Positions 1,714-64,000 of a stretch of DNA of 64,000 nucleotides are shown in pieces. The notes below the pieces were generated by a model, which saw nothing but the letters and a program-made list of their open reading frames with translations, did not search any database and was not told the origin of the DNA. Position 1 is the first letter of the stretch. Each line of letters starts with the position of its first letter. The translations under genes were made by a program, and so were the position numbers. The stretch comes from Candidatus Levybacteria bacterium RIFCSPHIGHO2_01_FULL_36_15b (GTDB lineage: Bacteria; Patescibacteriota; Microgenomatia; Levybacterales; UBA12049), in NCBI GenBank assembly GCA_001782045.1, contig MFNK01000008.1:2597-66596 (forward strand), written 5' to 3'.

Positions 1714-1742
1714 TTGATTTTTGTCTTATAGTGTGTTATATT
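1714..1742 (+). promoter_or_regulatory. sigma70-like promoter TTGATT-17-TATATT upstream of the first family gene
   Basis: TTGATT at 1714-1719, 17 nt spacer, TATATT at 1737-1742. Sits in the argS-downstream gap, so the in-frame ATG at 1749 is the more likely start. Confidence 0.4.
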
Positions 1743-1748
1743 CCACGC

Positions 1749-2300: not shown

Positions 2301-2301
2301 T

Positions 2302-5622: not shown

Positions 5623-5631
5623 ACATTAATT

Positions 5632-6504: not shown

Positions 6505-6563
6505 TAGCCTCGATTTTTGACATATTTTAAACTGATACTCTTTCCGTTATAATATTAGCTCTT

Positions 6564-7862: not shown

Positions 7863-8778
7863 CCTGTTTCCTCAAGCTTTCTCTTTCCTGTGCCAGTTTT
7901 ATATTTCTTACAGATTCTTCTCCGAGTTCTAATTTAGCCGGATATCTCAGCATAAAATAAGCACCCCACTTGTGAATGTCTACTTCTCTTTGTGCATTAT
8001 GAATCCAAAGTCCATTAGAGTCTTCTACAAAAGTTCCAACATCCTTAAGGCTGATTTTTTCTTCCCAAACTACTTTTTGTGGGTCTTTAATGTCAAAAAT
8101 AGTTAACTTATCGCCATTATTGAGCATGTGGAATCCTTCATAATCCCATTTTTCAACTAAAAGAGTGTCAGATTGTCTTTGCTCAATAACTCCGTCTTGC
8201 CACTCTACGGTTGCTCTTGTTATTTCTCCAGGCCTTATTCCATAAGGTCTTTCTGCAATAGGCGTTCCTCCTGCAGAATACCTTTTTCCTTTAGTATCTA
8301 CGGCAGTAGATTTATCCACCATAATCCAGTTTCCTTCGCCTAACTTCTCGTTAAACCTATCGGCTGAATATTTCATCTTGAATTCATACTTTTCCATCAA
8401 CCTTTTATCTGCTTCTTTGTCTCCTTCTTCTTCACCTACGTATAAAGAAGAAATATAATAATCTTCTTCTTTTTCCATTGGATCAGGAAGAAGATCCCAT
8501 TTTTCTCCGTGTAGTACTTCTGCATCGTCTTTAGTTTTTCCTTTTCTATCCGGATTATTTAAATCCCAAACTTCAGTGTTTCCAAAGACGCCGTCTGCTC
8601 TATCATAAGTTATAAAATCTCTGTCTTGGAATGCCCAGTATCCACCCTCGATGCCAGTTTCTGAGTAAAATTCTAACTTTCCTTTGTAGGTATGTGGGGG
8701 AAGTTTTTCTTTTGGCTCTCTTGTTTTATACGGATCTAAATCTGCAACTTCGTTTGCTCTTAACAATTCATTTTTCAT
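7840..8778 (-). CDS. VADLDPY-motif family protein (member 7; N-terminal LRANEVADLDPYKTREPKEK)
   Basis: 312 aa on the minus strand, convergent with the M16 peptidase gene and overlapping its end by about 22 nt. Confidence 0.55.
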   Translation of the reverse strand: MKNELLRANEVADLDPYKTREPKEKLPPHTYKGKLEFYSETGIEGGYWAFQDRDFITYDRADGVFGNTEVWDLNNPDRKGKTKDDAEVLHGEKWDLLPDPMEKEEDYYISSLYVGEEEGDKEADKRLMEKYEFKMKYSADRFNEKLGEGNWIMVDKSTAVDTKGKRYSAGGTPIAERPYGIRPGEITRATVEWQDGVIEQRQSDTLLVEKWDYEGFHMLNNGDKLTIFDIKDPQKVVWEEKISLKDVGTFVEDSNGLWIHNAQREVDIHKWGAYFMLRYPAKLELGEESVRNIKLAQERESLRKQAKSSEAS

Positions 8779-18081: not shown

Positions 18082-18967
18082 TTACCTCTATATCGATTAC
18101 ATTTATCAATAAATCCTTTTATTAATGTTGGTAGTTAAAATTAGTATTTTTCATTTTCACAAATACAAATATTATGTTTTCATAAATTGTTAGATATACC
18201 AATAATTGTAAAACGTGTTGTATTTATTTTTAAAACTTACTAAAATTACGTAAATTTTGCTTGATTAATTATGATATCTTTAGTTATAAATTAATACTTA
18301 AAGATATATACTATATTAGTATCTGAGCCTGAATAAAAAAGTAGTCCTATATTATAAGTAAATGTCATAATGTTAAAATACGAAAAAAAATAGAAGATAT
18401 GTCAATTTTAAGGCTAAATATAACTAATTACCGAATATTTACCGAAAGAAGCATTTTAAGCTTGAGGTGATTTAATTTCACAAATTAGGGTTGCTTTTAC
18501 TCATAAAGCGCTACTAGAATCTAATTAAATATTAAACAATTGACTAAATGATTCTTTGTATTGAGTTTAAAATCTAAACACTTCACTTTTATGCTTAGCA
18601 CACATAATTTTCAGCTGCTAAAATACCCCTAAAAAAGCATTTTCACATCAAAGATTTAGGATATTTAATTAATTTTGAGTTCAATTCACCTAATTCGATT
18701 ATATTTCGTATTTATTCTTTAATTCGGGTTCTACCGCTCGCGCTCGATCGCTTATTAGGACACGCTCATCAATCTCTTTTTAAGATTTAGAATTTTCTCT
18801 CCACTTCGCTAAGTTAAAATCTGCACTAATCCTAATTTTCCAAACACAAACGCAGATTTTCAGTTGTCTCATAATCGACCGAAGCGCTCACGTCACCCGT
18901 AAAAATTCCAAATCTCGCATTCTTGCTATTTATTGAACATTAATCATTAATCATTTATTATTAATTT

Positions 18968-19843: not shown

Positions 19844-20506
19844 ATGATTGAACAAAGTAGGCTGGGATTAAGAGCTCATGAGGTAGCAGACCTAGATCCA
19901 TACAAAGTTCGCAAAATAGAGCTGCAGCTAGAGGCAGAAGAGCTTATTGTAAAAGAAGAACCGCGAGAAGAAGTTGGGAAAATGTACTTCACGAAAGAGC
20001 AGAAACAGCAGTTAGAGCAACAAGGATTTCAAATCTACAGACTTTCCGGAATTACTTCCAACGAAATGAAAGGAATAAGTTTTAAATATAATTTTTTAAG
20101 AAGTGGTTTGCGTAAGTTGATGAATGAAAAATCCATGGAAGGAGAAGTTGCTATTGATCCAAATAATTTTTTTTGGCAAGAGACGGCTTATAAAAAATAT
20201 TTAGAGCAGGCAGAAATTGTTCTTTCCAATAAAAATAAGAGAGGAGTAGAAGGTACAAGATTTATTTGGGGCAACGTTGCTGACTATGTGGAATTGAGCT
20301 ATCTATACTTTCGAAGAAACACAAAACCTTTTGGATCTTTATTTAAATCCGACTGGGCAAGAACTTCTGGACCAGGTCCAAATCTTTCAGTTGCCATAGT
20401 TACAATTAAAGACAACTTTGTTCAATTTAAATTTGAAGACACAGATAAAATGTCGGAAAATATTAAAATTGCACCACTTCTTATAAAAGACGTTCAAATT
20501 GATTAA
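19844..20506 (+). CDS. VADLDPY-motif family protein (member 8; N-terminal LRAHEVADLDPYKVRK)
   Basis: 220 aa. Shares the FTKEQKQQLEQQGFQIYRLSG module with members 9-11. Confidence 0.55.
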   Translation: MIEQSRLGLRAHEVADLDPYKVRKIELQLEAEELIVKEEPREEVGKMYFTKEQKQQLEQQGFQIYRLSGITSNEMKGISFKYNFLRSGLRKLMNEKSMEGEVAIDPNNFFWQETAYKKYLEQAEIVLSNKNKRGVEGTRFIWGNVADYVELSYLYFRRNTKPFGSLFKSDWARTSGPGPNLSVAIVTIKDNFVQFKFEDTDKMSENIKIAPLLIKDVQID

Positions 20507-20511
20507 TAGAT

Positions 20512-21417
20512 TTGATTTTGTATATTACGAGTCTATATAATTTAACTGTGGCTGAAGCGAAAAAAGACGAATTTTTATCAAGAGAAGATATTCCAGATCC
20601 ACCTTCTTCGATAAGTAAGAGCAGAAGGCTCGAAATCCAAAAGGAGTTAGAAGAACTTGAAAAAGAAGGATTTCCCAAACAATCTAGTAAGTCTACAACT
20701 GTAGAAAAAGTACCAGAAAAAAGACCAGGAAAAGATTTTCAAAGGCCAGATGAGTGGGTAGATCAAGATCCTTACAATGTTCGTGGGAAACCTAAGCAAG
20801 AAGCAGCAAGAGAGCTTTTGAGTTCTGATGAAGAAAAACAAACTAAATTATTAGAGCAAGAGGGTTTTGGATCTTTTACACAAGAACAAAAAGTAGAACT
20901 CGAAAGTAGGGGTTTTGAAATTTATAAATTGACAGGAATTTCAATGGCAGATATGCAGGATAAAATAGAATTTGCAACTAATGTAGGCCCTGATTTTGTA
21001 AAAAATTTGAAATCCAGCGTCGGTGAAGTAGCAGTTGTGCATACTCCAGGTTTATTCTTTCTATCAAACAGTAGTCAAAAGACTCTCGCCGAGCAGCAGG
21101 AAATAATTGATTTGTTTTCCGCAAGATTAAGTAGCGATATTCCCGGAGTTAAAGCAATAATTGGAGAAGCAGCTGATTATATTGCGATTGCGGATCAAGA
21201 CAGTAGAATTCAAGATGAGCGTAGTAGGCTTTTCGGGCTTCGTTACGCTGGCAGTATTCGTACCTCAACTACACGTGGTAGATATCGTTCTGAAAAATTA
21301 TCCCTTGCTCGAGGAATGAAAAAAGAACTCCATGTTATGTTTTGGGGTGACGATTTAAACCAATTTAAAGATCTATTTGTTGCTCCCTTGATTATTCCTA
21401 ATAATGACAGAACCTAA
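20512..21417 (+). CDS. VADLDPY-motif family protein (member 9; divergent motif WVDQDPYNVRGKPKQEAARELL at about residue 80)
   Basis: 301 aa. FTQEQKVELESRGFEIYKLTG module. Confidence 0.5.
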   Translation: MILYITSLYNLTVAEAKKDEFLSREDIPDPPSSISKSRRLEIQKELEELEKEGFPKQSSKSTTVEKVPEKRPGKDFQRPDEWVDQDPYNVRGKPKQEAARELLSSDEEKQTKLLEQEGFGSFTQEQKVELESRGFEIYKLTGISMADMQDKIEFATNVGPDFVKNLKSSVGEVAVVHTPGLFFLSNSSQKTLAEQQEIIDLFSARLSSDIPGVKAIIGEAADYIAIADQDSRIQDERSRLFGLRYAGSIRTSTTRGRYRSEKLSLARGMKKELHVMFWGDDLNQFKDLFVAPLIIPNNDRT

Positions 21418-22135
21418 AAAAGACGAAATGATGAGATCAGATCAGGTCGCGGATTTAGATCCGTATAACCAGCGTGGAAAACCAAAGCAAGAAGCCGCAA
21501 GGGAGCTTTTGGGGGATGAGCCGGAAGTTGAGGAAGATGAGAATTTTGATGGACCAAAGTTTACACAAGAGCAAAAAGTAAAACTGCGCGATTACGGTGC
21601 GGAAATATTTACACTTCACGGAGAGTCTATAAATTCATTAAAAGAAAAAGGATTAAAAGTATGGTCGAATTTAGACTCTTCCGATTTCCAGCTTGGCTAT
21701 GAAGGACATAAAACTGAAGTGGCAATTAGACTAGCTTCAAATTATCTTTTCCTACCAGATAGTAACAATAAAAATTATGATGAACAAGCAAATATGGTAA
21801 CAAACTATTCATTGGAGCTTGAAAGAAAAATTCCAGGCATTTATGCATCGCTCGGATTTCCAAGTGACTATGCAGAAATAGTACTGCATTGCTTAACCAA
21901 GCGTGGACTAGAATTGTTCAAAGGTACAACTCCTAATGGAGGGTATATGTACACCAGTACAGCAATGAGTAGATCGGAAAGCTTAGGATCGGGAAAAACA
22001 GATTCATTTTTTATATCAGTAGGCGGAATGGATGAATATGGACTTGGCATACATGCTTTTTCTGCAACAGAAGATATTAGTTTTATATTTGCAACCCCCT
22101 TGATTTTCCCTGATTCAAATCGAGTTAATTTATGA
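21404..22135 (+). CDS. VADLDPY-motif family protein (member 10; N-terminal MTEPKKDEMMRSDQVADLDPYNQRGKPKQEAARELLGDEPE)
   Basis: 243 aa. 14 nt overlap with member 9. The N-terminal 45 aa are near-identical to members 11-13. Confidence 0.6.
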   Translation: MTEPKKDEMMRSDQVADLDPYNQRGKPKQEAARELLGDEPEVEEDENFDGPKFTQEQKVKLRDYGAEIFTLHGESINSLKEKGLKVWSNLDSSDFQLGYEGHKTEVAIRLASNYLFLPDSNNKNYDEQANMVTNYSLELERKIPGIYASLGFPSDYAEIVLHCLTKRGLELFKGTTPNGGYMYTSTAMSRSESLGSGKTDSFFISVGGMDEYGLGIHAFSATEDISFIFATPLIFPDSNRVNL

Positions 22136-22836
22136 TTGAACCTAAGAAAGACGACATGATGAGATCAGATCAGGTTGCGGACTTAGATCCGTATAACATG
22201 CGTGGTAAACCAAAGCATGAAGCTGCGAGGGAATTGATTGGGGAAGAGCCTGAAGTTGAGGAAGAACAATTTGATGGTCTAAAGTTTACCCAAGAACAAC
22301 GAGAAAAATTGGAAGAAGTGGGACTCACGATTCTTCAATTAGAAAATTTAACTTTTGACGATCTATATAATAATGGTTTAGGCAAAATTTATGAAACCAA
22401 ATATTTTGATTTAATAGAGAAGATGAATAATGATAGGTCCATTAAAACAGAAGTGGCAATAAACATTTTGGACCCTTTTATTAAAGATAGTTTTTTTAAA
22501 ACATTTGGTGAGCAGATTGAGCTTGTGCGACTCTTTGATGAGCAAATTAGAAATCAGATTCCAGGAGTTAAAGCTAATATTGCCGAAGCAGTAGACTTAG
22601 CCCAAATATCTTTTATTCACGCAAAAGAATCATATTTTTATGTATATAATAATTATACTAGAACCAGCACTTCGATAGATGGAAAATTAGTAGCAATAAG
22701 TGATCAGTATAACTCAGGCACCTCTAGCACCTTTATTAAAACTCGTTTTGATTTTGTTGATAGGGATAGTAAATTACCATCTTTAGGAATAGTCGCATTA
22801 ATATACCCTGAAAGTTATCCGGGCAAGTCAGATTAA
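22132..22836 (+). CDS. VADLDPY-motif family protein (member 11; N-terminal MIEPKKDDMMRSDQVADLDPYNMRGKPKHEAARELIGEEPE)
   Basis: 234 aa. ATGA overlap with member 10. Recent paralog, with DNA-level similarity across the first ~120 nt. Confidence 0.6.
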   Translation: MIEPKKDDMMRSDQVADLDPYNMRGKPKHEAARELIGEEPEVEEEQFDGLKFTQEQREKLEEVGLTILQLENLTFDDLYNNGLGKIYETKYFDLIEKMNNDRSIKTEVAINILDPFIKDSFFKTFGEQIELVRLFDEQIRNQIPGVKANIAEAVDLAQISFIHAKESYFYVYNNYTRTSTSIDGKLVAISDQYNSGTSSTFIKTRFDFVDRDSKLPSLGIVALIYPESYPGKSD

Positions 22837-22933: not shown

Positions 22934-23143
22934 ATGCCAGAACAACTTTCTATAAATAATCTTCCGGATCTTCTAACAGTACGAGAAGTTGCCCAGATTT
23001 TGCGCGTTTCTCCCTTAACTATAAAAAGATGGGGTAAAAGAGGAAAATTGCCTGCAATTAGAATTAACTCAAGAGGAGATCGAAGATATAAAAAAGAAGC
23101 AGTCCTCTGGCTTTTAGGAATTGCCAGTCCAACCACAGAATAA
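22934..23143 (+). CDS. HTH DNA-binding protein (excisionase/MerR-like HTH_17 family)
   Basis: 69 aa. LTVREVAQILRVSPLTIKRWGKRGKLPAIRI matches the helix-turn-helix of Xis/AlpA-type binders. Confidence 0.55.
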   Translation: MPEQLSINNLPDLLTVREVAQILRVSPLTIKRWGKRGKLPAIRINSRGDRRYKKEAVLWLLGIASPTTE

Positions 23144-23169: not shown

Positions 23170-23190
23170 CCGCCAATAAAGGCGGATTTT
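23170..23190. terminator. bidirectional rho-independent terminator hairpin (CCGCC-AATAAA-GGCGG, A/T-flanked)
   Basis: GC stem-loop at 23170-23185 with T-tracts on both sides, between the convergent HTH gene (+) and rplL (-). Confidence 0.55.
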
Positions 23191-23192
23191 TG

Positions 23193-23212
23193 TCCTTCGA
23201 CAGGCTCAGGAT
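23193..23212 (+). repeat. dispersed ~20 bp repeat, copy 2 (TCCTTCGACAGGCTCAGGAT)
   Basis: Read directly from the sequence, between the terminator and the rplL stop. Confidence 0.6.
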
Positions 23213-23220
23213 TAGCTAAA

Positions 23221-23616
23221 TTACTTTAGCTCTACAGTTGCACCCGCTGCGGTTAATTTTTCCTTAGCTTCATCAGCTGTCTTTTTGTTGACTGCTGTCA
23301 TTACCTCTTTTGGAGCCGTATCTACCAATGCTTTTGCATCGGCAAGTCCCAAAGTTGGAACTAATTCTCTTACAGCTTTAATTACTGCAATTTTGTTTGC
23401 TCCGCCGGACGCTAAAACGACGTTGAATACCGTCTGTTCACTGGCTTCTTCTCCGCTTTCTGCTGGCGCTGCGGCTCCGGCTGCTGGTGCTGCTGCAACC
23501 ACTGCTGCGCTGACACCAAATTTGTCTTCCAAAGCCTTAACAAATTCTGACAGTTCGAGAACTGACATTTCTTCAACTGCTTTTAAAAGCTCTTCTTGTT
23601 TTGCTTTTGCCATCAA
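23221..23616 (-). CDS. rplL: 50S ribosomal protein L7/L12
   Basis: 131 aa. Ala-rich hinge. C-terminal domain ...[15 protein letters not shown]. Confidence 0.9.
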
Positions 23617-24386
23617 TTCTCACCCCCTTTATTTTCATTATTAGATTGATTTTCGGGTTTTTCCGCTGCTAGCTCTTGCGGTGTTTCGGAGAGTATAGTT
23701 TCTGGTTCGACGGGCTCACCACTAGGTGGTTTGGCAGATTCACTATTTAATGACTCTGCGACTGGAGTTTGCACGGATGCCTGTTCTTGGACTGCCTCTG
23801 TTTGTTCAATTACTGGCTGTTTGTTAGCCGGAGAAGTCGGAACAGAATCAGCCGGTTTGTTTTGCACAACTGCATTTAAAGTCATAACAAGTTTTTGTAA
23901 GTTCCAATTTAATGCTTTATGTAAGCCTGAAATAGGGGATTTAAGAGTAAAAACCAGTTGCGAAAGCAGTACTTCGCGTGTTGGAAGAGTTGATAGTTTT
24001 AAAATTTGTTCTCCGGTTACAAAATCTCCTTCCATTATGCCAAATTTAACATTTGGCAAATTTAGCTCTTTAATCAGCTTTGCAAGTTCTTTAAGGGGAA
24101 GAAGTAAATCGTTATATAAAAAAAGCGTTCCTGTTTGGCCACCTAGCTCGTGTTCGCCTTCGAGCTTTTTATCTGTAATTGCGCGCGTTAAGAGCGAATT
24201 TTTGGCTACAACAAATTCGGAATCTGCCTTTTTTAGCTGTTTTTTAAGTCCCTCTATTTGTTTGTGCGTTAAGCCTTGATAGTTAGTAAATATAACAGCT
24301 TTAGCCTTTGTATACTTTTCACTTAAGCTGCTTACAATTCCTACTTTTTTTTCTCTATTTTTGCTTATTTTAGGTTCTTCGTTCAT
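23613..24386 (-). CDS. rplJ: 50S ribosomal protein L10 with a ~85 aa Glu/Pro/Gln-rich C-terminal extension
   Basis: The N-terminal ~170 aa match L10 ([21 protein letters not shown]...). 257 aa total; the tail is low-complexity and acidic. Confidence 0.8.
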
Positions 24387-24393: not shown

Positions 24394-24414
24394 TCCTTCG
24401 ACTGCGCTCAGGAT
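24394..24414 (+). repeat. dispersed ~20 bp repeat, copy 3 (TCCTTCGACTGCGCTCAGGAT)
   Basis: Read directly from the sequence. Confidence 0.55.
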
Positions 24415-24523
24415 TGTGTTCTATTTTAAATTTTCAAGAGGAACACAAAAAACTCGTCTAAGACGAGTAAATAAGTTTGAGCTGAACTTTAGTTTTCCTC
24501 GGTAGGACTTATAGATTGAAGCG

Positions 24524-24544
24524 TCCTTCGACTTCGCTCAGGAT
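24524..24544 (+). repeat. dispersed ~20 bp repeat, copy 4 (TCCTTCGACTTCGCTCAGGAT)
   Basis: Read directly from the sequence. Confidence 0.55.
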
Positions 24545-24611
24545 TTAGCTTCGCTCAACCCACTGTCTTAGGTTATGTTAGTTTAACAAATACAAAAGTA
24601 TTTTTCAATAC

Positions 24612-24800
24612 TTAATTATGAGGGTTTTTTTCCGCCTGAAAAACTGTTTCTGAATTTCCTTTTGGTTTATCTATGTCTAAAACTCTAGCGGAGCCGACGA
24701 AATCAGAAGCATCCGCTTTCTGATATGGAGGTAAAACATATCTTATTTTAGGATACCTTTTCTGCGTCCTTTGTCTTTCTTGAGCTCTTTCTCTACTCAT
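24612..24800 (-). CDS. small basic hypothetical protein (62 aa)
   Basis: Arg/Lys-rich N-terminus (MSRERAQERQRTQKRYPKIRY). Could be a real small protein or spurious. Confidence 0.25.
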   Translation of the reverse strand: MSRERAQERQRTQKRYPKIRYVLPPYQKADASDFVGSARVLDIDKPKGNSETVFQAEKNPHN

Positions 24801-24835: not shown

Positions 24836-25573
24836 TCAAGACGTTACGCTTTTTGCGTAATAGCCCCTGTTTTCTTTTGGAAGAAGCACTGCAAGCCTTC
24901 CCATCATTAGATTGATAATTGACTTATCCGGATAAAGCACTTTTTCCATGGAAATTTCTTCATAAGAGTAGGGAGTTCCAACCTCAACAACGGTTTGGGT
25001 TAGGGGAGGAAATATTTGATACGGGTGTAGCGCTATAGGCAAGGCAAGTGAGCTATCTTTAGCAATTCTAAATAAAATATCAATTCCAGGCTCGGCTTTT
25101 ATTAATCCGCCTGTTTTACTTCTTGTGCCTTCAGGAGCAATTGCTAAAATCCGACCTTTTGTTTTTAATGCTTCTATTGCTTTTTGTACTGAAACCCGAT
25201 TAAAGTTGCTTGAATCTTGGTATAAATGCGCTTCATATCTTTGGACGACCTGCAAAACATCAAATCCTCTTGTTTTCGCAAGGCCATGTATTACTGAATT
25301 TTTAATTCTTGAAGAAACTCCTCTCTGTGGGTCAAGATGTTTTCTTCCTGCGAGGATGCTCAAATTAGAAAGAGACAAGTTTTCATCTAAAAATCTTGCT
25401 AAAACTGTAGTATCTAGGGTAGAGAAGTGGTTCGTATACAAAAGAAGCGAGCCTTGCTTCAAATGAGCCTTGGCTTTGTCTAAATTATTATCTGGATCAT
25501 TAACTTCGTATCTTACAGCTTTTGAAAGCTGCCAAAGCGTTTCAACTAGCGGACGAGAATCTTTTTCTTTCAT
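24836..25573 (-). CDS. lysophospholipid (1-acyl-sn-glycerol-3-phosphate) acyltransferase, PlsC family
   Basis: HxxxxD motif (NHFSTLD) and PEGTRS motif III. Confidence 0.7.
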   Translation of the reverse strand: MKEKDSRPLVETLWQLSKAVRYEVNDPDNNLDKAKAHLKQGSLLLYTNHFSTLDTTVLARFLDENLSLSNLSILAGRKHLDPQRGVSSRIKNSVIHGLAKTRGFDVLQVVQRYEAHLYQDSSNFNRVSVQKAIEALKTKGRILAIAPEGTRSKTGGLIKAEPGIDILFRIAKDSSLALPIALHPYQIFPPLTQTVVEVGTPYSYEEISMEKVLYPDKSIINLMMGRLAVLLPKENRGYYAKSVTS

Positions 25574-25603
25574 CGGCGCAATATTATCAGATATAATGGG
25601 TTT

Positions 25604-26284
25604 ATGGAAGAGGAATTAGTAAAATCTCCGGAAATAAATGAAAGCGAATTTGACGTTGTTGTGGTTTTGGGTGGCAATATTCGAAAAGATAACAATGGAA
25701 ATTGGAGAACATCTAGCTTTGAAGAAGGGGAAGAAAAATCAATGGGAGCGCATGGTAGAATCCTAGCCGCATCCGAACTTTATAAACAAGGCAAAGCAAA
25801 AAACTTTATTGTTTGTACTGGGCTTAGTTCTAATATATCCGGTCAGCCAGGAGTTTTGGAGCCGCAAGCACCAACCGAGGCAGAAGTAATGGCTTGGGAG
25901 CTAGAAGAATATGGAGTTCCTAAAAATTTAATAATTCGCGAAGATATTTCTGACAGCACTTTAGCAAACGTTAGAGAGGCTGCAAGAATTATAAGAGAAC
26001 ACAATTTTAAAAATGTTGGTCTTCTTACAAGTTTTTGGCATTTAGAAAGGGCAATGGTAATGATGGAATCCCAAAGGCTGGACACAGAAGGAAGACACGT
26101 TACTCCTTTATCATCGGAGGATATTCTTGCGGAAAAATCCTCTCACCACGCTTATTTAATTAATAAAGTAAAGGAAGCGCCAACAATGCAAAAAAGAATT
26201 GAAGCAGAAAATAGAGGATTACAAGCATTCAAAAGCGGAGACTATAACCAAACTCCTCATGGAACAAACCCGACGAAAGATTAG
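25604..26284 (+). CDS. DUF218 (YdcF/SanA/ElyC-like) domain protein
   Basis: VVVLGG, RILAASELYKQG and EDISDSTLANVREAARII segments match the DUF218 pattern. Confidence 0.5.
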   Translation: MEEELVKSPEINESEFDVVVVLGGNIRKDNNGNWRTSSFEEGEEKSMGAHGRILAASELYKQGKAKNFIVCTGLSSNISGQPGVLEPQAPTEAEVMAWELEEYGVPKNLIIREDISDSTLANVREAARIIREHNFKNVGLLTSFWHLERAMVMMESQRLDTEGRHVTPLSSEDILAEKSSHHAYLINKVKEAPTMQKRIEAENRGLQAFKSGDYNQTPHGTNPTKD

Positions 26285-26850
26285 GTAATGTTAAAAGCTT
26301 TTAAGATTTCTTCAGCCTTAACTCTATATTCATCTTCATCTGATATTATTTTCTCTCTAATTTCAAATAAGGGAACATTATTTTCTTCACATAGTATTTC
26401 TACTCCTGTTGCGAAGGGGCTATTATATGTTGAAAAGTTCATTCCGGTCATTGCTTCAGAATATGTGTGCATTTCCGGTAAAAGCACTACTCCGGTAGGT
26501 AAGCTTCTATCTTCTTTTTTTGATGTTGTATAATTTTCTACGTTGTAAAAATTGCTCAAATAAGAGTCTGCTTCATTTTGAACTGCAACTTGCTGTTGCT
26601 TAGCTCCAAGATCCGAAAGTAAATCAAATATCCATTTTCTTAATACAACTGATCTACTGGAAACAGAACCTAAAACAAGAATTCTGAATGGCTCTTTTTC
26701 TCTATTTATCTCTCTTGAATCTTTTTCCTCTGGTGTTTCTGGAAGCAATTCTCTTGCAGCTTCTTGTTTTGGTTTTCCACGCTGATTATACGGATCTAAG
26801 TCGGCAACATCGGGGGCTCGCATTATATCGTCTGTTTTAGGTTCACTCAT
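26281..26850 (-). CDS. VADLDPY-motif family protein (member 12; N-terminal MSEPKTDDIMRAPDVADLDPYNQRGKPKQEAARELL)
   Basis: 189 aa tandem paralog of member 13. Located between rplA and rplJ. Confidence 0.6.
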   Translation of the reverse strand: MSEPKTDDIMRAPDVADLDPYNQRGKPKQEAARELLPETPEEKDSREINREKEPFRILVLGSVSSRSVVLRKWIFDLLSDLGAKQQQVAVQNEADSYLSNFYNVENYTTSKKEDRSLPTGVVLLPEMHTYSEAMTGMNFSTYNSPFATGVEILCEENNVPLFEIREKIISDEDEYRVKAEEILKAFNIT

Positions 26851-27417
26851 TTATATTAAATTAAATTCTTTTAGAATTTCCTCAGTCTTTTCTGTTACGG
26901 CTTCGGGAGTTTGCAACATTTCATGAATTTCAAACAATGGGACATCATTTTCTTCACATAATTTTCTTATCATATCGGCAAATCCACTTTCGTAACTAGG
27001 AATTGTCATTCCTTCTCGGGAAGGGGAATACTGCCTCATTTCTGGCAATAGTACAACTCCGGTAGGAACACTTAATTCATCCTTTGTTGATGTATCTAAA
27101 TCGACCACGCCAAAAAAAGCGCTTTCAGCTGCGTCTACATCTCTTGCCGATCTTGTTGACGGATCTTTTGCTCCCGCACTTAAGAGATAATCATAAATTG
27201 TAGATCCTAAATCTAGACCGCCACTAAGTCTAGAACCTAACACGACAATTCGGTAGGGTTGTTTTGGTTTTAATCTTTCTTTAGCTACTTTTTCTTCTTT
27301 GGAATCTTCTAAAAGTTCTTTTGCTGCTTCGTGTTTGGGTTTTCCACGTTGATTGTATGGATCCAAATCCGCAACATCTGGGGCTCGCATCAATTCGTCT
27401 TTTTTGGGTTCGATCAC
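26851..27417 (-). CDS. VADLDPY-motif family protein (member 13; N-terminal MIEPKKDELMRAPDVADLDPYNQRGKPKHEAAKELL)
   Basis: 188 aa. Shares a C-terminal module with member 12 (PTGVVLLPEM...CEENxVPLFEI). Confidence 0.6.
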   Translation of the reverse strand: MIEPKKDELMRAPDVADLDPYNQRGKPKHEAAKELLEDSKEEKVAKERLKPKQPYRIVVLGSRLSGGLDLGSTIYDYLLSAGAKDPSTRSARDVDAAESAFFGVVDLDTSTKDELSVPTGVVLLPEMRQYSPSREGMTIPSYESGFADMIRKLCEENDVPLFEIHEMLQTPEAVTEKTEEILKEFNLI

Positions 27418-27462
27418 AAGATAATTATATCAGAAGCAGTCTCTTGACATAATAAGCCTATA

Positions 27463-28509
27463 TTGATATCCTTTGCATCTATGTCAGCAGTTGAAAGACA
27501 AAATGGCGAACACAGCCTGCCTGTTAACATTGCGGATCACATTCGTGCAGAAAGTCAACTCCATCCAGAAGTTACAGGTTCACTGGCGTCAATACTTACA
27601 GATCTTACAAGAGTAGCAAAAGAGATTTCCTTTACCGTAAATACGGCGGGTATTCAAAATCTTTACCGTTCAACTGGAAGAACAAATGCATATGGCGAAA
27701 ACGTAATACAGCTGGATGAAAAGGCAAATCAGCAATTCAAAGATATACTTGCAAATAACGATAACGTTGCTGGGTTTTCTTCCGAAGAAGAAGAAGGTTT
27801 TGTGCCATATCCAAATTCAGAAGATGGAAAGTATATTCTTTGGTTTGATCCCTTAGACGGATCTTCGAACTTTGATATAAATGGTTCGGTAGGTTCAATT
27901 TTTTCAATTTATAAAAGAGTTTCTCCTGATAAAACTCCGGTTGATGAAAAAGATTTTATTCAAAAAGGAAGCGAGCAGGTTTGCGCAGGATATTTTCTTT
28001 ATGGACCAAGCACTATGCTCGTTTACACAGCAAGATTTGGGGTTTATAGATTTACATTAAATCCAAGCGTAGGAGAATTTGTTTTGCCGAAAGAATACGC
28101 ACAAATTGCAACCCCTGATTCGGGAGGAATATACAGCGTAAATGAAGCCTACAGCAATAATTGGCCAGATTCTGTTAAATCTTATGTCAATCACTTAAAG
28201 ACAAGACCGGGTGCTACATCAAGATATGTTGGCTCTTTAGTAGCTGATGTCGATAGGGATTTGTTAAAAGGTGGAGTGTATTTATATCCTGCAGATTCAA
28301 ACCATCCAACGGGAAAATTAAGGTTAAATTGCGAAGCTAATCCATTGGCTTTTGTCGTTGAACAAGCTGGAGGAGCCGCAACAGATGGAACAAATAGGAT
28401 TTTAGATTTGCAACCCGAATCTCTTTTACAAACAACGCCTCTTATAATTGGAAGTAAGAATGAAGTAGAATTATTCAGACAATTTACTCAAAGACCCCTT
28501 TGGCAATAG
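27463..28509 (+). CDS. fbp: fructose-1,6-bisphosphatase class 1
   Basis: WFDPLDGSSNFDINGSVGSIF metal-binding motif. 348 aa. Confidence 0.85.
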   Translation: MISFASMSAVERQNGEHSLPVNIADHIRAESQLHPEVTGSLASILTDLTRVAKEISFTVNTAGIQNLYRSTGRTNAYGENVIQLDEKANQQFKDILANNDNVAGFSSEEEEGFVPYPNSEDGKYILWFDPLDGSSNFDINGSVGSIFSIYKRVSPDKTPVDEKDFIQKGSEQVCAGYFLYGPSTMLVYTARFGVYRFTLNPSVGEFVLPKEYAQIATPDSGGIYSVNEAYSNNWPDSVKSYVNHLKTRPGATSRYVGSLVADVDRDLLKGGVYLYPADSNHPTGKLRLNCEANPLAFVVEQAGGAATDGTNRILDLQPESLLQTTPLIIGSKNEVELFRQFTQRPLWQ

Positions 28510-28532: not shown

Positions 28533-29360
28533 TTAAACTCTAATTTTAATCCCAGGGGACATTGTGGATTTTAGGGTTATATTGACGATATTTCCTTTTT
28601 TAACAGCATTTACCATTGATTCGATATTCTCGCTCAATTTTTCAGAACCAAAGCTCATTTTTCCAACAGTTAAATGAAGTAGGGGATTTTTAGTTTCTGT
28701 TTTAAAGTTAATTTGCCCGCCTTCATATTTTTTAACAACTTCCTCCGGTTTTGCCGTAATTGTCCCGTTTTTAGGATTTGGCATCAAGCCTCTTGGGCCC
28801 AAAACTTTAGCAACTTTAGCCAGTTTTGGCATCATATCTGGTGTTGCAACTAAAATATCAAAATTTATAACACCTTTTTCTACTTCTGCAATTATTTTAT
28901 CGTCTGCAACTGCCACCCTTGTCTTTTTTCCAGTCCCGTGGGGAAGAGTAACGTTTCCTGAAATGCCGGCAGTTACAGTATTTATATGAAGCTCTACTGT
29001 TTCGTCAAATTTGCCCCTTTGCATTTTTCCTAAAAGTTCCAATGCTTCGGGCAATGGATACAGTTTAGTTCTGTCTAAATTAGATGATAAGTCGTTATAT
29101 TTGGCTGAATGAGGTTCTTTTTGGAATTTTTCTTTTTTTGCTTTTTTAACCTCTTTTTTTTCAGCCTCTTCTGGTTTTGTTTCTATTGTTTCAACCGCTT
29201 CTTCCTGTTCGGCAGGAGGCGTTACTACTTCGGTTCCCTCATCGACTTTTGCTTTTTCAGTCTTTTTAGCCTCTTTTTTACTCGCACGTCTTTCTTCAAG
29301 CCTTTTTGCCCTTGCTGCATCTTCTAGGTCGTCAAATGATTTAACTCTAACTTTTCCCAT
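28533..29360 (-). CDS. rplA: 50S ribosomal protein L1 with a ~90 aa Lys/Glu-rich N-terminal extension
   Basis: The C-terminal ~190 aa match L1 (FDETVELHIN...LPHGTGKKTRVAV...). 275 aa. Confidence 0.8.
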   Translation of the reverse strand: MGKVRVKSFDDLEDAARAKRLEERRASKKEAKKTEKAKVDEGTEVVTPPAEQEEAVETIETKPEEAEKKEVKKAKKEKFQKEPHSAKYNDLSSNLDRTKLYPLPEALELLGKMQRGKFDETVELHINTVTAGISGNVTLPHGTGKKTRVAVADDKIIAEVEKGVINFDILVATPDMMPKLAKVAKVLGPRGLMPNPKNGTITAKPEEVVKKYEGGQINFKTETKNPLLHLTVGKMSFGSEKLSENIESMVNAVKKGNIVNITLKSTMSPGIKIRV

Positions 29361-29786
29361 TTATTTTACTTTTACACCCATACTTTGGGCGACTCCTTCC
29401 ACAATTTTTACAGCCGGTTCTAATTCGTCTGTATTTAAATCTTCCATTTTGTCTTTTGCAATTTGCTCTGCTTGGGCTCTGCTTAATACTCCTGCTTCTT
29501 CGGTTCCGGGTTTTCCTGAGCCCTTTTCTGTATTCAGCGCCTTTTTAATCATTTCGGCAATTGGTGATTTTTTAACAATAAAAGAAAAAGTTCTGTCTTC
29601 GTAAACCGTAATTACAGCGGGAACTATTGTCCCTTTTTGATCGGCTGTTTTATCATTAAAAGCTTTAACGAATTCCATAATAGGGAGTCCGTGTGGTCCC
29701 AAAGCAGTTCCAACGGGTGGTGCGGGAGTTGCCGCACCGGCTGGAATATTTATTTTTATAATTGTTTTTATTTTTTTAGTTGCCAT
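29361..29786 (-). CDS. rplK: 50S ribosomal protein L11
   Basis: IKINIPAGAATPAPPVGTALGPHG. 141 aa. Confidence 0.9.
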   Translation of the reverse strand: MATKKIKTIIKINIPAGAATPAPPVGTALGPHGLPIMEFVKAFNDKTADQKGTIVPAVITVYEDRTFSFIVKKSPIAEMIKKALNTEKGSGKPGTEEAGVLSRAQAEQIAKDKMEDLNTDELEPAVKIVEGVAQSMGVKVK

Positions 29787-29891
29787 ATCTGTTCAAAATT
29801 ATCTGGAAGAGTAGAGAAGTACCTTTTTGAGGTAATCTTATCTACTGGTTCTTTCGACCGAAGTCTTCCAGGTTAGCAATAAGTTTTTGTA

Positions 29892-30752
29892 TTATAACTT
29901 ACTTACTTGTAAAAAGTCTAGTTCAACAGGTGTTTCTCGTCCAAAAATTGATACCAATACCTTTATTTTTCCTCTTGCTTCATCAATATTATCAACTGTT
30001 CCTAAAAAGTCTGTAAATGGACCATCAACAATCTTTACAGCTTCGCCAATTGTAAAGGTTGTTGTAAACAAAGGCTCTTCCGCTTCCATAAATTTTTGAA
30101 TTGCGGCAACTTCTTTTTCGGAAATTGGAGTAGGCTTATTGCCGGCTCCAATAAATGCCGTTACTCCTTGTGTAGTTCGTACCAAAAGCCAGCTTTCATC
30201 ATCCAAAATCATTTTTACCAAAACGTATCCGGGGAATATTTTTTCTTTTACATTCTCTTTTTTGCCCTGACTTACTTTAATTGTGTTTCTTGTAGGAACA
30301 ATAATATCAAAGATTCTATGTTCAAAACCCATTGATTCAACTCTTTGATGCAAGCTTTTTGCAACCTTATTTTCATGTCCGGAATAAGTATGAACTATAT
30401 ACCATTTAGCCAAATCAGATGCTTTTGGTTTGCCTTCTTCTTTCTCGTCCGCCTTAGCTTTAGCGGCGGTGGATTTAGGCTCAATAGCTTGTGTTTCCTG
30501 CGCTTCTTCTCTGTCTTCTGCTTCGTTTCCCGCCTGCATCGCCTGAGGCGAAGCATCTGCGGGCAGGTCTACTGCTTCTTCTTGGGTTTTTCCATCTTCC
30601 TCAGTTGCTTCTATTTGCATGTCGTGCGGTGCTTCCAGTTGCGGTTCGTTCGGAGCCTCAATTTCTTCTACTTTTTCCTCAACAGGGGTTGCAGCCGAAG
30701 TTTGATTTTCGGGCATTTTGTCTTCTGTTTTTTGATTTTGATCGTCGTTCAT
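29892..30752 (-). CDS. nusG: transcription termination/antitermination factor NusG with a ~100 aa acidic N-terminal extension
   Basis: The C-terminal 180 aa match NusG NGN+KOW (WYIVHTYSGHENKV...GEAVKIVDGPFTDFLGTV). The N-terminus is Glu/Ala/Gln-rich. Confidence 0.8.
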   Translation of the reverse strand: MNDDQNQKTEDKMPENQTSAATPVEEKVEEIEAPNEPQLEAPHDMQIEATEEDGKTQEEAVDLPADASPQAMQAGNEAEDREEAQETQAIEPKSTAAKAKADEKEEGKPKASDLAKWYIVHTYSGHENKVAKSLHQRVESMGFEHRIFDIIVPTRNTIKVSQGKKENVKEKIFPGYVLVKMILDDESWLLVRTTQGVTAFIGAGNKPTPISEKEVAAIQKFMEAEEPLFTTTFTIGEAVKIVDGPFTDFLGTVDNIDEARGKIKVLVSIFGRETPVELDFLQVSKL

Positions 30753-30753
30753 A

Positions 30754-30942
30754 TTATCTTACGATTATAATCTCGGTTAGTTTTGTTAGTAAAAAATCAA
30801 TCCCTCCCAAGAATAATCCTACAATTAAACTTACTAAAATTACTACGCCTGTTAATCTAATTACTTCGGCTCGTGACGGCCAAACGACCTTTTTAAGTTC
30901 GTCTCTTACCTCTGCAATAAAACTGACTGGTGTCGTTGCCAT
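30754..30942 (-). CDS. secE: preprotein translocase subunit SecE
   Basis: 62 aa with a single TM. FIAEVRDELKKVVWPSRAEV signature. Located upstream of nusG. Confidence 0.7.
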   Translation of the reverse strand: MATTPVSFIAEVRDELKKVVWPSRAEVIRLTGVVILVSLIVGLFLGGIDFLLTKLTEIIIVR

Positions 30943-33612: not shown

Positions 33613-33712
33613 CTGGATTCGACAAGCTCACCATTCGCGTGAGATTTTCGAATTCTGATTGTGGGATGAGTTTATCCTGAGCAAGGTCGAAGGAATTCCC
33701 ACTGTCGGCTCA
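33613..33712 (+). repeat. tRNA-like remnant/duplication of the tRNA-Thr(GGT) ends (CGACAAGCTCA...ATTCCCACTGTCGGCTC)
   Basis: 16 nt TTCCCACTGTCGGCTC is repeated exactly (33596-33611 and 33696-33711). The 5' CGACAAGCTCA motif occurs at 33523 and 33619. The middle is unrelated and contains reverse copy 5 of the dispersed repeat. Confidence 0.4.
33674..33694 (-). repeat. dispersed ~20 bp repeat, copy 5 (reverse orientation; plus strand reads ATCCTGAGCAAGGTCGAAGGA)
   Basis: Reverse complement is TCCTTCGACCTTGCTCAGGAT. Confidence 0.55.
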
Positions 33713-51942: not shown

Positions 51943-51969
51943 GTTAGTCGAAAGAGAAAATAAAGAATA

Positions 51970-63683: not shown

Positions 63684-63930
63684 AGATTTCACTATGTAAA
63701 GACTCTTGCCAAAGACGTTGGTTTAGAACCCGCCTCTGGCGGGATTTTTAGTCTTTAATAGCTTAATTTGCACTTTGATAATTTGGGGTGAGGAACCGGA
63801 ACAAAATAACTTTCAATCAACTAAATTAGTAATTAGTTGACAATCAGAAAGTGGTAGGAATTTTTTGTTAGATTAATTCCTTAAAGAAAATCTAACAAGG
63901 TTTAGCTGTAAAGCTAACCCAATTTTTTTG

Positions 63931-64000
63931 AGAATTTGATCCTGGTTCAGGATGAACGCTGGCGGCGTGCCTTAAGCATGCAAGTCAAGGGGGCTCCGCA
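63931..64000 (+). rRNA. 16S rRNA, 5' end (partial; continues beyond window)
   Basis: AGAATTTGATCCTGGTTCAGGATGAACGCTGGCGGCGTGCCTAAGCATGCAAGTC matches the universal 16S 5' region. Confidence 0.85.

What the first reader, a model, noticed from the sequence alone, without database searches (positions are those of the whole stretch)
24836..28509. Family pair plus accessory genes inserted inside the conserved secE-nusG-rplKA-rplJL cluster
rplK-rplA (29786-28533) and rplJ-rplL (24386-23221) are normally adjacent. Here they are separated by about 4.1 kb carrying family members 12 and 13 (tandem, minus strand), fbp, a DUF218 gene, a PlsC acyltransferase and a small basic ORF. This region also holds two copies of the dispersed 20 bp repeat, in the L10 leader. 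A second family locus (19844-22836) and an Xis-like HTH gene lie immediately downstream of rplL. Disruption of one of the most conserved bacterial gene orders suggests the family spreads by insertion or recombination, not only by local tandem duplication.
Basis: partly seen in the sequence, partly recalled or inferred. Interest (0 to 1): 0.6.

Follow-up and report, generated by a model that had tools for sequence, protein, structure and literature searches.

The report
Old variable gap splitting ribosomal-protein operons
In this Levybacteria (CPR) genome the rplKA and rplJL ribosomal-protein operons are 4.1 kb apart, but the split is old and common in the lineage, so it was not caused by the orphan gene pair that sits in the gap.

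Summary
rplA and rplJ are 4,146 bp apart, with fbp, two tandem orphan genes (f13, f12), a DUF218 gene, a PlsC-like acyltransferase and a 62-codon ORF between them.

Of the 17 closest relatives that carry both genes, 14 have 1.9-7 kb between rplA and rplJ, and five of those have rplJL inverted. None carries the family. A PlsC-like gene recurs in the gap in the four nearest relatives. rplJL keeps its own L10 leader and terminator, here and in relatives, so the break falls at an operon boundary.

The gap genes have native composition and codon usage. There are no flanking repeats, no integrase, and no viral, PHROG or PADLOC relatives.

The "family" is a roughly 30-45 residue peptide module (LRAxEVADLDPYxxRGKP) predicted to be disordered. 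It is attached to at least five unrelated bodies and is rare: 35 proteins among 1.84 billion representatives. Synonymous sites inside the module are randomised between copies, so selection acts on the peptide and the copies are old.

The f12/f13 body occurs only in this species. That fits a lineage-specific gain into a pre-existing variable junction. Ordinary overall; the module is a modest curiosity.

The parts
28533..30942 (-). secE-nusG-rplK-rplA block (secE 30754-30942, nusG 29892-30752, rplK 29361-29786, rplA 28533-29360)
   Evidence: Pfam hits for L11 and L1. The precomputed annotation of the same locus shows SecE and NusG. The block is contiguous in all relatives.
27463..28509 (+). Class 1 fructose-1,6-bisphosphatase, convergent with rplA
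   Evidence: PF00316 and PF18913. NCBIfam equivalog NF006778 scores 394 bits against a cut-off of 368. Only one relative (L005) has an fbp near rplA: 39% identical, 3.3 kb away.
26851..27417 (-). f13: orphan 188-aa gene. An N-terminal EPKKD...VADLDPYNQRGKPK module is followed by a 'type C' body
   Evidence: No hit in Pfam, NCBIfam, PADLOC or PHROGs. Among 5.8 billion protein clusters, only same-species homologues were found. The AF2 model is weak (pLDDT 59) and shows an alpha/beta body with a disordered N-terminus. Foldseek found no PDB match.
26281..26850 (-). f12: tandem paralogue of f13 (51% identity). Its start abuts the f13 stop, and its 3' end overlaps the DUF218 3' end by 4 nt
25604..26284 (+). 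DUF218 (YdcF/ElyC-like) gene
   Evidence: PF02698, 73.9 bits. A 48%-identical copy lies in the same neighbourhood in L001.
24836..25573 (-). PlsC-like (PF01553) acyltransferase with an NHFSTLD (HX4D) motif
   Evidence: PF01553 scores 30 bits against a gathering score of 23. TIGR00530 falls far below its cut-off. Homologues 28-39% identical lie between rplA and rplJ in L001, L088, L089 and L127.
24612..24800 (-). 62-codon ORF with a basic N-terminal half; unverified gene
   Evidence: Called as a gene in several assemblies. It has no family hit and no homologue in relatives.
24437..24590 (-). L10 leader (RF00557) with a terminator-like hairpin at 24468-24452. Its variable hairpin is enlarged (49 nt against 17 in the model) by one copy of the 20-nt repeat (24524-24543)
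   Evidence: 43.1 bits against a gathering score of 44, E = 1.2e-5, full-length match. Terminator. Leaders above the gathering score precede rplJ in five relatives.
24394..24413 (-). Second copy of the 20-nt repeat. Its 3' AAGGA lies 8 nt before the rplJ ATG, in the position of a likely Shine-Dalgarno sequence
23221..24386 (-). rplJ-rplL operon (rplJ 23613-24386, rplL 23221-23616)
   Evidence: Pfam L10 and L12.
23170..23210 (.). Bidirectional terminator-like hairpin (23170-23185) between rplL and the HTH gene, followed by a variant repeat copy (23194-23210)
22934..23143 (+). Small HTH_17/MerR, excisionase-domain (BldC-like) gene, convergent with rplL
   Evidence: Pfam and NCBIfam. It is 82-97% identical in the 80 best of 488 metagenome matches. 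It is co-directional after rplL in 46 of 53 relatives and never convergent there.
19844..22836 (+). Second family locus, f8-f11: the module plus a 'type B' body, lying between galT and the HTH gene
   Evidence: Relatives have HTH and galT no more than 451 bp apart in 10 of 13 loci. A sister species shares the galT-f8 junction.

Best explanation
The 4.1-kb segment is the local state of an old, lineage-wide variable spacer between two independent transcription units, secE-nusG-rplKA and rplJL. It is not a scar left by a spreading gene family.

In Levybacteria and their relatives in Microgenomates/Patescibacteria, the rplA|rplJ junction has been invaded repeatedly by ordinary chromosomal genes. 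A PlsC-like acyltransferase is the oldest recognisable occupant. rplJL, with its L10 leader/attenuator and usually a small conserved HTH gene, behaves as a self-contained cassette. In different relatives that cassette is adjacent to rplA, several kb away, inverted, or absent from the neighbourhood. Because rplJL carries its own autoregulatory leader, separation from rplKA should cost nothing. That last step is inferred.

In this species the spacer holds three housekeeping-type genes (class 1 FBPase, DUF218, acyltransferase) and a tandem pair of fast-evolving orphan genes (f13, f12). The pair belongs to the 'family' only through a disordered N-terminal peptide module, M-x-EPKKD-x2-MR-x3-VADLDPYN-x-RGKPK-x-EAA-x-ELL. 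The same module is attached to other, unrelated bodies elsewhere.

The pair was probably gained in this lineage and duplicated in place, long enough ago that synonymous sites are randomised and composition is native. How it arrived is not shown. The most likely routes are illegitimate recombination or duplication followed by body replacement.

The module is most likely a short linear peptide signal for docking, targeting or processing. This is inferred from its position-independence, predicted disorder and peptide-level conservation.
For: Gene identities.

Synteny:
- Among 17 loci with L1 at least 50% identical that hold both genes, 3 have rplA and rplJ adjacent (under 400 bp). The other 14 are 1.9-7.0 kb apart, and 5 of those have rplJL inverted.
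- L005 and L006 have no rplJ within 10 kb downstream of rplA.
- Eleven non-Patescibacteria control loci have gaps of 34-485 bp.

Gap contents in relatives:
- They are heterogeneous: GT4 glycosyltransferase, NUDIX, metallophosphoesterase, a TrwB-like ATPase and unknowns.
- A PF01553 acyltransferase recurs in the four closest relatives, and DUF218 occurs in L001.
- No family motif occurs in any related locus.

rplJL autonomy:
- The L10 leader in the window is a full-length match, E = 1e-5, with a terminator.
- It passes the gathering score upstream of rplJ in L088, L117, L002, L001 and L162, whatever the position or orientation of rplJL.

No sign of foreign DNA:
- GC, GC3 and synonymous-codon likelihood of all gap genes lie within |z| <= 1.4 of the 71 window genes.
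- There are no flanking direct or inverted repeats.
- No integrase or transposase lies within about 10 kb on either side.
- There are no relatives in IMG/VR, PHROGs or PADLOC.

Family structure:
- Only the module is shared between body types.
- The module is rare: 35 proteins among 1.84 billion representatives.
- Identical-codon counts at conserved residues match random expectation for every pair of copies except the adjacent f10-f11.
- The f12/f13 body has no homologue outside the species.
- The module is disordered in both AF2 models.
- A type B body exists without the module (P0042).

Literature: invasion of the inter-operon region by a few genes is the usual first step in disconnecting concatenated operons (PMC8046335).
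Against: - The nearest relative with an informative rplA-rplJ region is already distant (L1 62-74% identical). The time and order of the events, and whether f12/f13 were gained here or lost elsewhere, therefore rest on parsimony.
- The sister species (argS 85% identical) could not be examined at this junction.
- Orthology of the PlsC-like genes (28-39% identity) is assumed from family and position, not shown by phylogeny.
- The metagenome loci were chosen by anchoring on the HTH gene, which biases the sample towards loci where HTH lies near rplJL.
- The L10-leader match in the window is 0.9 bit below Rfam's gathering score.
- Nothing here shows that f12, f13 or the 62-aa ORF are expressed.
Confidence: 0.75

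Rival explanations
1. A mobile or recombinogenic gene family inserted into the intact rplKAJL cluster and split it, bringing accessory genes with it.
For: - Family genes lie at two junctions that are closed or differently filled in relatives: rplA|rplJ and HTH|galT.
- The f12/f13 body is species-specific.
- A sister species has a member with the same module in a different junction.
- f10/f11 and f12/f13 share 100-113 nt of 75-80% identical 5' sequence, starting exactly at the start codon.
- In one relative (L130) the same junction holds a TrwB/VirD4-like ATPase, so foreign DNA can land there.
Against: - The junction is open in 14 of 17 close relatives that lack the family, with a shared PlsC-like occupant.
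- The gap genes have native composition and codon usage.
- There are no flanking repeats and no integrase or transposase nearby.
- There are no viral, PHROG or PADLOC relatives.
- Synonymous sites of the shared module are randomised, so there has been no recent copying or gene conversion.
Confidence: 0.08
2. Functional linkage. The module-bearing proteins act on, or are regulated with, the translation apparatus. Their position next to ribosomal-protein and aminoacyl-tRNA-synthetase genes would then be selected rather than accidental.
For: Most family loci examined touch translation genes:
- argS followed by f1-f6, which is syntenic in a sister species
- leuS next to P0018 and two genes from P0037
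- rpsO next to P0006
- an S1-domain gene next to P0025
- rplL and rplA/rplJ next to f8-f13
Against: - These small genomes are dense in translation genes, so adjacency is expected often.
- P0038, in this same genome, sits among VWA, AAA_5, SMC-like, Fic and DNA ligase genes.
- Relatives with the same ribosomal operons lack the family entirely.
- f12/f13 lie on the same strand as the ribosomal genes but are separated from them by oppositely oriented genes (fbp and DUF218), and rplJ has its own leader. Co-transcription with the ribosomal operons is therefore unlikely.
Confidence: 0.1
3. Assembly or binning artefact. The contig is chimeric, and rplKA and rplJL are really adjacent.
For: The source is a metagenome-assembled genome, and family paralogues do break contigs in a sister species.
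Against: - The identical gene order from galU to mreB appears in all six places displayed, from six different assemblies in NCBI, JGI and ENA.
- Composition is uniform across the junctions.
- Relatives show comparable gaps.
Confidence: 0.01

Closest known systems
Canonical bacterial secE-nusG / rplKA / rplJL-rpoBC cluster (E. coli, B. subtilis)
   Same: The units have the same composition and internal order. secE-nusG-rplK-rplA is contiguous and rplJ-rplL is contiguous. An L10 leader lies upstream of rplJ.
   Different: rplA and rplJ are 4.1 kb apart, against 34-485 bp in 11 non-Patescibacteria controls. No rpoBC follows rplL; the largest ORF in the window is 823 aa. An HTH gene and galT follow rplL instead, here and in relatives.
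Inter-operon invasion model for disconnecting concatenated operons (Genome Biol Evol 2021, PMC8046335), including the rplJL relocation in Haemophilus influenzae Rd
   Same: A few unrelated genes occupy the inter-operon region. Further rearrangement follows: rplJL is inverted or relocated in relatives.
   Different: That study covered Gammaproteobacteria and Bacilli, where such events are rare exceptions. Here the open junction is the majority state across a whole CPR clade.
Rfam RF00557 L10 leader (Firmicutes-type attenuator)
   Same: The match is full length and keeps the conserved ACC.AAGACAG...CCGAGG core. A terminator hairpin with a U-run follows, directly upstream of rplJ. Relatives pass the gathering score.
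   Different: The variable hairpin is 49 nt instead of 17 because it contains a genome-specific 20-nt repeat. The score is 43.1 bits against a gathering score of 44.
Polymorphic-toxin cassettes with a conserved junction motif before variable C-terminal domains (Rhs PxxxxDPxGL, CdiA VENN). This is a recalled resemblance, not a tested one.
   Same: A short conserved peptide precedes diverse, fast-evolving bodies, and the genes are arranged in tandem arrays.
   Different: There is no large N-terminal delivery domain. The module can sit at the extreme C-terminus or between domains. There are no recognisable toxin or immunity domains. There is no sign of recent recombination at the motif.
Excisionase (Xis)/BldC-like small HTH proteins
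   Same: The HTH gene matches the TIGR01764 excisionase-family domain above its cut-off, and also matches HTH_17/MerR.
   Different: It is not linked to any integrase. It is 82-97% identical in the 80 best of 488 metagenome matches and syntenic with rplJL. It therefore behaves as a core lineage gene, not a marker of mobile DNA.

Membership tests
Canonical rplKAJL(-rpoBC) gene order | secE-nusG-rplK-rplA contiguous and co-directional | tested here: met
Canonical rplKAJL(-rpoBC) gene order | rplJ immediately downstream of rplA (a few hundred bp) | tested here: not met
   The gap is 4,146 bp and holds six ORFs. Control loci have 34-485 bp.
Canonical rplKAJL(-rpoBC) gene order | rpoB-rpoC downstream of rplL | tested here: not met
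   An HTH gene and family genes follow rplL. No ORF in the window exceeds 823 aa.
Rfam RF00557 L10 leader | Covariance-model score at or above the gathering score | tested here: inconclusive
   43.1 bits against 44, E = 1.2e-5, model positions 1-138 of 138. Five relatives score 44.7-57 bits.
Rfam RF00557 L10 leader | Located directly 5' of rplJ on the same strand, ending in a terminator hairpin with a U-run | tested here: met
   The leader lies at 24437-24590(-). The terminator lies at 24468-24452. The rplJ start is at 24386.
Mobile element or genomic island insertion | Integrase, transposase or recombinase gene in or next to the segment | tested here: not met
   Pfam annotation of about 10 kb on either side shows none.
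Mobile element or genomic island insertion | Flanking direct repeats (target duplication or att sites) or terminal inverted repeats | tested here: not met
   Apart from short, low-identity two-copy matches of the kind expected by chance, the only repeats are the f12/f13 tandem duplication and the two 20-nt copies, both near rplJ.
Mobile element or genomic island insertion | Deviant base composition or codon usage | tested here: not met
   All gap genes lie within |z| <= 1.4 for GC, GC3 and codon likelihood.
Mobile element or genomic island insertion | Relatives of the cargo found in viruses, phage protein families or defence systems | tested here: not met
   There are no confirmed relatives in IMG/VR contigs and no PHROGs or PADLOC hits. 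Plasmids were not searched.
Mobile element or genomic island insertion | Presence/absence polymorphism among close relatives | tested here: inconclusive
   f12/f13 are absent from all relatives sampled. The nearest informative relative is only 62-74% identical in L1.
Class 1 fructose-1,6-bisphosphatase | NCBIfam equivalog score above the curated cut-off, with both Pfam FBPase domains | tested here: met
   NF006778 scores 394 bits against 368. PF00316 and PF18913 both hit.
PlsC (1-acyl-sn-glycerol-3-phosphate acyltransferase) | PF01553 domain with the HX4D catalytic motif | tested here: met
   PF01553 scores 30 bits against a gathering score of 23. NHFSTLD can be read directly in the translation.
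PlsC (1-acyl-sn-glycerol-3-phosphate acyltransferase) | Match to the specific AGP acyltransferase model TIGR00530 above its cut-off | tested here: not met
   21 bits against 103. The gene is therefore filed only as a PlsC-like acyltransferase-superfamily member.
DUF218 (YdcF/ElyC/SanA-like) | PF02698 above the gathering score | tested here: met
   73.9 bits against 27.6.
Single homologous gene family comprising f1-f13 | Homology over most of the protein length between members | tested here: not met
   f12/f13 match f5, f6 and f9-f11 mainly over the first ~30-55 residues, and match f1-f4 and f7 only over the core ~20-35 residues. At least five unrelated body types exist. A type B body exists without the module.
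Polymorphic toxin cassette (Rhs/CdiA-like) | Large N-terminal delivery region, a C-terminal toxin domain and a cognate immunity gene | tested here: not met
   The proteins are 188-425 aa and hit no Pfam, PADLOC or PDB toxin domain. Immunity pairing was not testable.

The most novel reading that the evidence does not exclude
The shared element LRAxEVADLDPYxxRGKP may be a portable, intrinsically disordered peptide tag for docking, targeting or processing. It is used by at least five structurally unrelated, fast-evolving protein bodies in a very narrow Levybacteria clade.

The tag works at the N-terminus, at the C-terminus or between domains. This genome carries at least 15 tagged genes. The two pairs and arrays beside rplJL would then be recent recruits of one 5' cassette (a TATAAT-proximal start plus the tag) onto new bodies.

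If so, the tag would define an undescribed CPR-specific client system, for example cargo for a secretion, proteolysis or assembly machine.
Probability: 0.35. Interest if true: 0.55.

Novelty: new member of a known kind. Interest (0 to 1): 0.3.

Why it matters
The result mainly corrects an inference. Breakage of the rplKA-rplJL junction is not evidence that a gene family spreads in this genome, because the junction is open, variable and sometimes inverted across the whole clade.

It is a useful reminder that 'universally conserved' operon adjacencies are relaxed in CPR/Patescibacteria. It also shows that the conserved units are the autonomous operons, here rplJL with its L10 leader.

Two by-products could be followed up:
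- a rare disordered peptide module shared by unrelated orphan proteins, with bodies that diverge quickly between sister species (46-75% identical where argS is 85%);
- a genome-specific 20-nt repeat that has colonised the L10 leader hairpin and the rplJ ribosome-binding region.

Tried and rejected
1. Profile search with the 47-column module alignment against the 5.8-billion-cluster word-indexed database returned nothing. The exhaustive HMMER search was needed.

2. DNA-level explanation of the motif. The motif DNA, GCGGATTTAGATCCG, is a small palindrome. However, synonymous variants break the pairing without compensation. I rejected a conserved DNA or RNA element.

3. Structure-based function.
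   - The AF2 model of f13 is weak (pLDDT 59) and has no PDB Foldseek hit better than E = 0.019. The top hits are P-loop-like folds, but the protein has no Walker A motif.
   - The AF2 model of f10 is better (pLDDT 71.5) but has no hit better than E = 0.9.
   - A PDB sequence search found nothing.

4. Phage or defence origin. No confirmed relatives in IMG/VR, PHROGs or PADLOC.

5. Homologues of the type C body in the window or in any fetched locus: none.

6. Literature. No paper mentions the motif in this context. No paper describing this junction in CPR was found among the listed hits.

7. Peptidase link. The M16 peptidase between f6 and f7 could be a processing enzyme, but no peptidase domain is annotated in the 19 kb of the sister species' array that was fetched. 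I did not pursue this.

8. RNA folding of the leader plus the rplJ 5' region. Not more stable than shuffled sequence (z = -1.07).

Full report
**Source and observation**

The window comes from Candidatus Levybacteria bacterium RIFCSPLOWO2_01_FULL_36, or a near-identical strain. The f12 protein is 100% identical to a protein of GCA_001782415.1. In the six places displayed, from six different assemblies in NCBI, JGI and ENA, the same gene order runs from galU to mreB; 19 contigs in all carry the f12 protein. The arrangement is therefore not an assembly artefact.

- rplL 23221-23616(-)
- rplJ 23613-24386(-)
- a 62-codon ORF 24612-24800(-)
- a PF01553 acyltransferase 24836-25573(-), with an NHFSTLD HX4D motif
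- DUF218 25604-26284(+)
- f12 26281-26850(-)
- f13 26851-27417(-)
- class 1 FBPase 27463-28509(+)
- rplA 28533-29360(-)
- rplK 29361-29786(-)
- nusG and secE upstream

rplA and rplJ are 4,146 bp apart. The two copies of the 20-nt repeat are real; none would be expected by chance.

**The rplJL unit is autonomous**

An Rfam L10 leader (RF00557) lies at 24437-24590(-). The match is full length, scores 43.1 bits against a gathering score of 44, and has E = 1.2e-5. It keeps the conserved ACC.AAGACAG...CCGAGG core and ends in a terminator-like hairpin at 24468-24452.

The score shortfall has a visible cause. The variable hairpin is 49 nt instead of 17 because one copy of the 20-nt repeat sits inside it. 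The second copy ends in AAGGA 8 nt before the rplJ ATG, where a Shine-Dalgarno sequence would be.

The same leader passes the gathering score directly upstream of rplJ in five relatives. It does so whether rplJL is adjacent to rplA (L117, L162), several kb away (L088, L002) or inverted (L001). The break therefore falls at an operon boundary, and rplJL carries its own regulation with it.

**Gene order in relatives**

I fetched two sets of loci:
- 80 loci around L1 homologues from one genome per species
- 80 metagenome loci anchored on the small HTH gene

I mapped the window's proteins onto both sets by tblastn.

Eleven non-Patescibacteria controls have rplA-rplJ gaps of 34-485 bp.

Among the 17 loci whose L1 is at least 50% identical to the window's:
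- 3 are adjacent (L115, L117, L162)
- 14 have gaps of 1.9-7.0 kb
- in 5 of those 14, rplJL is inverted relative to rplKA

In L005 and L006, no rplJ lies within 10 kb downstream of rplA. In L004, L006 and L007, galT follows rplA directly. More distant Patescibacteria show both states, from Woesebacteria with adjacent genes to gaps of up to 9.4 kb.

The gap contents differ between relatives. They include a GT4 glycosyltransferase, a NUDIX protein, a metallophosphoesterase, a TrwB/VirD4-like ATPase and several unknowns, some of which recur. The one occupant shared with the window is a PF01553 acyltransferase, found in L001, L088, L089 and L127 at 28-39% identity. DUF218 is also shared with L001, at 48% identity.

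None of the roughly 160 related loci encodes the family motif. The split is therefore older than the family pair and independent of it.

This fits the published pattern in which a few genes invade an inter-operon region and co-localisation then decays (PMC8046335).

**The downstream side**

The consensus order in relatives is rplJ, rplL, HTH (co-directional), then galT and wecG on the opposite strand.
- HTH follows rplL co-directionally in 46 of 53 loci.
- HTH lies divergently upstream of rplJ in 7 loci.
- HTH is never convergent with rplL, as it is in the window.
- HTH and galT are no more than 451 bp apart in 10 of 13 loci.

In the window, HTH is inverted and f8-f11 fill 3 kb between galT and HTH.

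The HTH protein carries an excisionase-family/BldC-like domain. It is nevertheless 82-97% identical in the 80 best of 488 metagenome matches and is syntenic with rplJL. It is a core lineage gene, not a marker of a mobile element.

**No signature of insertion**

- GC, GC3 and synonymous-codon likelihood of fbp, f13, f12, DUF218 and the acyltransferase all lie within |z| <= 1.4 of the 71 window genes.
- No direct or inverted repeats flank the pair or the block.
- No integrase or transposase lies within about 10 kb on either side.
- The family has no confirmed relatives in 2.9 million viral contigs, or in PHROGs or PADLOC.

**What the 'family' is**

An all-against-all comparison shows that the 13 members in the window share only a 30-45 residue module with the core LRAxEVADLDPYxxRGKP. 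The module is attached to at least five unrelated bodies:
- type A (f1-f5)
- f6-type
- f7
- type B (f8-f11)
- type C (f12, f13)

The module lies at the N-terminus in f6-f8 and f10-f13. It lies at the extreme C-terminus in f1-f3, where the stop codon follows DPYGVRK or DPYRVRSK directly. It lies between regions in f4, f5 and f9.

f12/f13 and f10/f11 share a specific 'EPKKD' subtype of the module, and their similarity starts exactly at the start codon.

An exhaustive HMMER search of 1.84 billion representative proteins finds only 35 module-bearing proteins at E <= 1e-3. Many of them come from this genome.

A sister species (Logan run SRR28401817; argS 85% identical) shows the following:
- It shares the array that follows argS.
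- It shares the galT-to-f8 junction.
- The sister-species homologues compared are 46-59% identical for f4-f6 and 75% for f8, so the bodies evolve faster than argS.
- It has a lone EPKKD-type member with yet another body between a DHH/NrnA-like gene and rpsO.

A type B body also exists without the module, in GCA_964566425.1.

At residues conserved between copies, the number of identical codons matches what codon usage alone predicts. The only exception is the adjacent pair f10-f11. Conservation is therefore at the peptide level, the copies are old, and there has been no recent gene conversion.

The palindromic look of the motif DNA is not maintained across synonymous variants.

In both AF2 models the module region has pLDDT below 50. 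The bodies are folded:
- f13 model: pLDDT 59, alpha/beta
- f10 model: pLDDT 71.5

Neither has a significant PDB match.

The type C body of f12/f13 has no homologue outside this species.

**Interpretation**

The best-supported account has four parts:
- The segment is the species-specific state of an old variable spacer between two autonomous operons.
- The PlsC-like gene is an ancient occupant. This is inferred from its position and family membership.
- fbp and DUF218 are ordinary chromosomal genes that moved in.
- f12-f13 are a lineage-specific gain, duplicated in place long ago. They are tied to the other 'family' loci only by a shared disordered peptide tag.

The weaker claim, that members occur at unlinked junctions and not only as local tandem copies, is supported. 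No mobility mechanism is evident, and the events are old.

I considered a functional link to translation genes, since most family loci touch translation genes. I rate it low for two reasons. These genomes are dense in such genes, and P0038 sits among unrelated genes.

The function of the module is inferred only: a docking, targeting or processing peptide, at about 0.35 probability.

**Verdict**

A real but ordinary feature of genome architecture in this CPR lineage, correctly observed and over-interpreted. Interest 0.3. It is a new instance of a known kind of event, inter-operon invasion. The rare peptide module is the only element with some potential for novelty.

Noticed in passing
window 1731-8778, 19844-22836, 26281-27417: Thirteen genes share only a roughly 30-45 aa disordered module (LRAxEVADLDPYxxRGKP), placed at the N-terminus, the C-terminus or between domains of at least five unrelated bodies. 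Only 35 such proteins exist among 1.84 billion representatives. At least two more members lie elsewhere in this genome (A3B38_03120 and A3B38_04485).
   Followed up: partly
L169 5999-16512; L174; L175 (Logan SRR28401817): A sister species (argS 85% identical) has a syntenic 11-gene array after argS and the same galT-to-f8 junction. The family homologues compared are 46-59% identical (f4-f6) and 75% (f8), so the bodies evolve fast while the module is conserved. Its contigs break inside the family loci.
   Followed up: partly
window 7803-7819, 23194-23210, 24395-24412, 24525-24542, 33676-33693, 51938-51954: A dispersed repeat, CCTTCGAC-N2-3-GCTCAGG, has six copies in 64 kb but only two hits in 1.87 Mb of related loci. 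One copy enlarges the L10-leader hairpin. One supplies the AAGGA before the rplJ ATG. One follows the rplL terminator. One encodes the C-terminal 'PSTGSG' of the M16 peptidase.
   Followed up: partly
window 22934-23143: The small BldC-like/excisionase-domain HTH protein is 82-97% identical in the 80 best of 488 metagenome matches and almost always follows rplL co-directionally. In this genome alone among those sampled it is inverted, and it ends a co-directional string galT-f8-f9-f10-f11-HTH.
   Followed up: yes
window 18082-18967: About 890 bp of AT-rich sequence lies between wecG and galT. The 1-kb window containing it has GC 0.27. It contains no ORF of 40 aa or more and no Rfam match, which is unusual in so compact a genome.
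   Followed up: no
window 20535-20573 versus 27392-27430: A 39-nt similarity links the region upstream of the f13 start (TATAAT, 7 nt, GTG) to an internal site of the listed f9 ORF. The sister-species f9 homologue starts at the equivalent GTG. The true f9 start is therefore probably near 20548, and these genes may be leaderless.
   Followed up: partly
window 28533-29360, 29892-30752, 23613-24386: L1 carries a Lys/Glu-rich N-terminal extension of about 85 aa. NusG carries an acidic N-terminal extension of about 110 aa. L10 carries a C-terminal extension of about 90 aa. Many relatives match only the core of L1 (residues 85-275).
   Followed up: no
L130 602-3448: In one relative, the rplA-rplJ gap (7 kb) holds a 948-aa TrwB/VirD4-like (DUF87) ATPase and two large unknown ORFs. 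This may be mobile DNA sitting in the same junction.
   Followed up: no
L001 13912-20490: The closest species-level relative has rplJL inverted and followed by a 2,192-aa ORF of unknown function.
   Followed up: no
P0032 (JGI contig, 1.1 kb): A 246-aa protein from an unrelated-looking organism contains four tandem ET(S/A)ADLDPY(G/N) repeats. The core peptide therefore also occurs as a repeat unit outside Levybacteria.
   Followed up: no
window 6564-7862: An M16 (pitrilysin/YfmF-YfmH-like) peptidase lies between f6 and f7, at the end of the argS-linked array. It could be a processing enzyme for the module. No peptidase domain is annotated in the 19 kb of the sister species' array that was fetched.
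   Followed up: partly
window 63924-64000: The 5' end of a 16S rRNA gene starts at the window edge.
   Followed up: no
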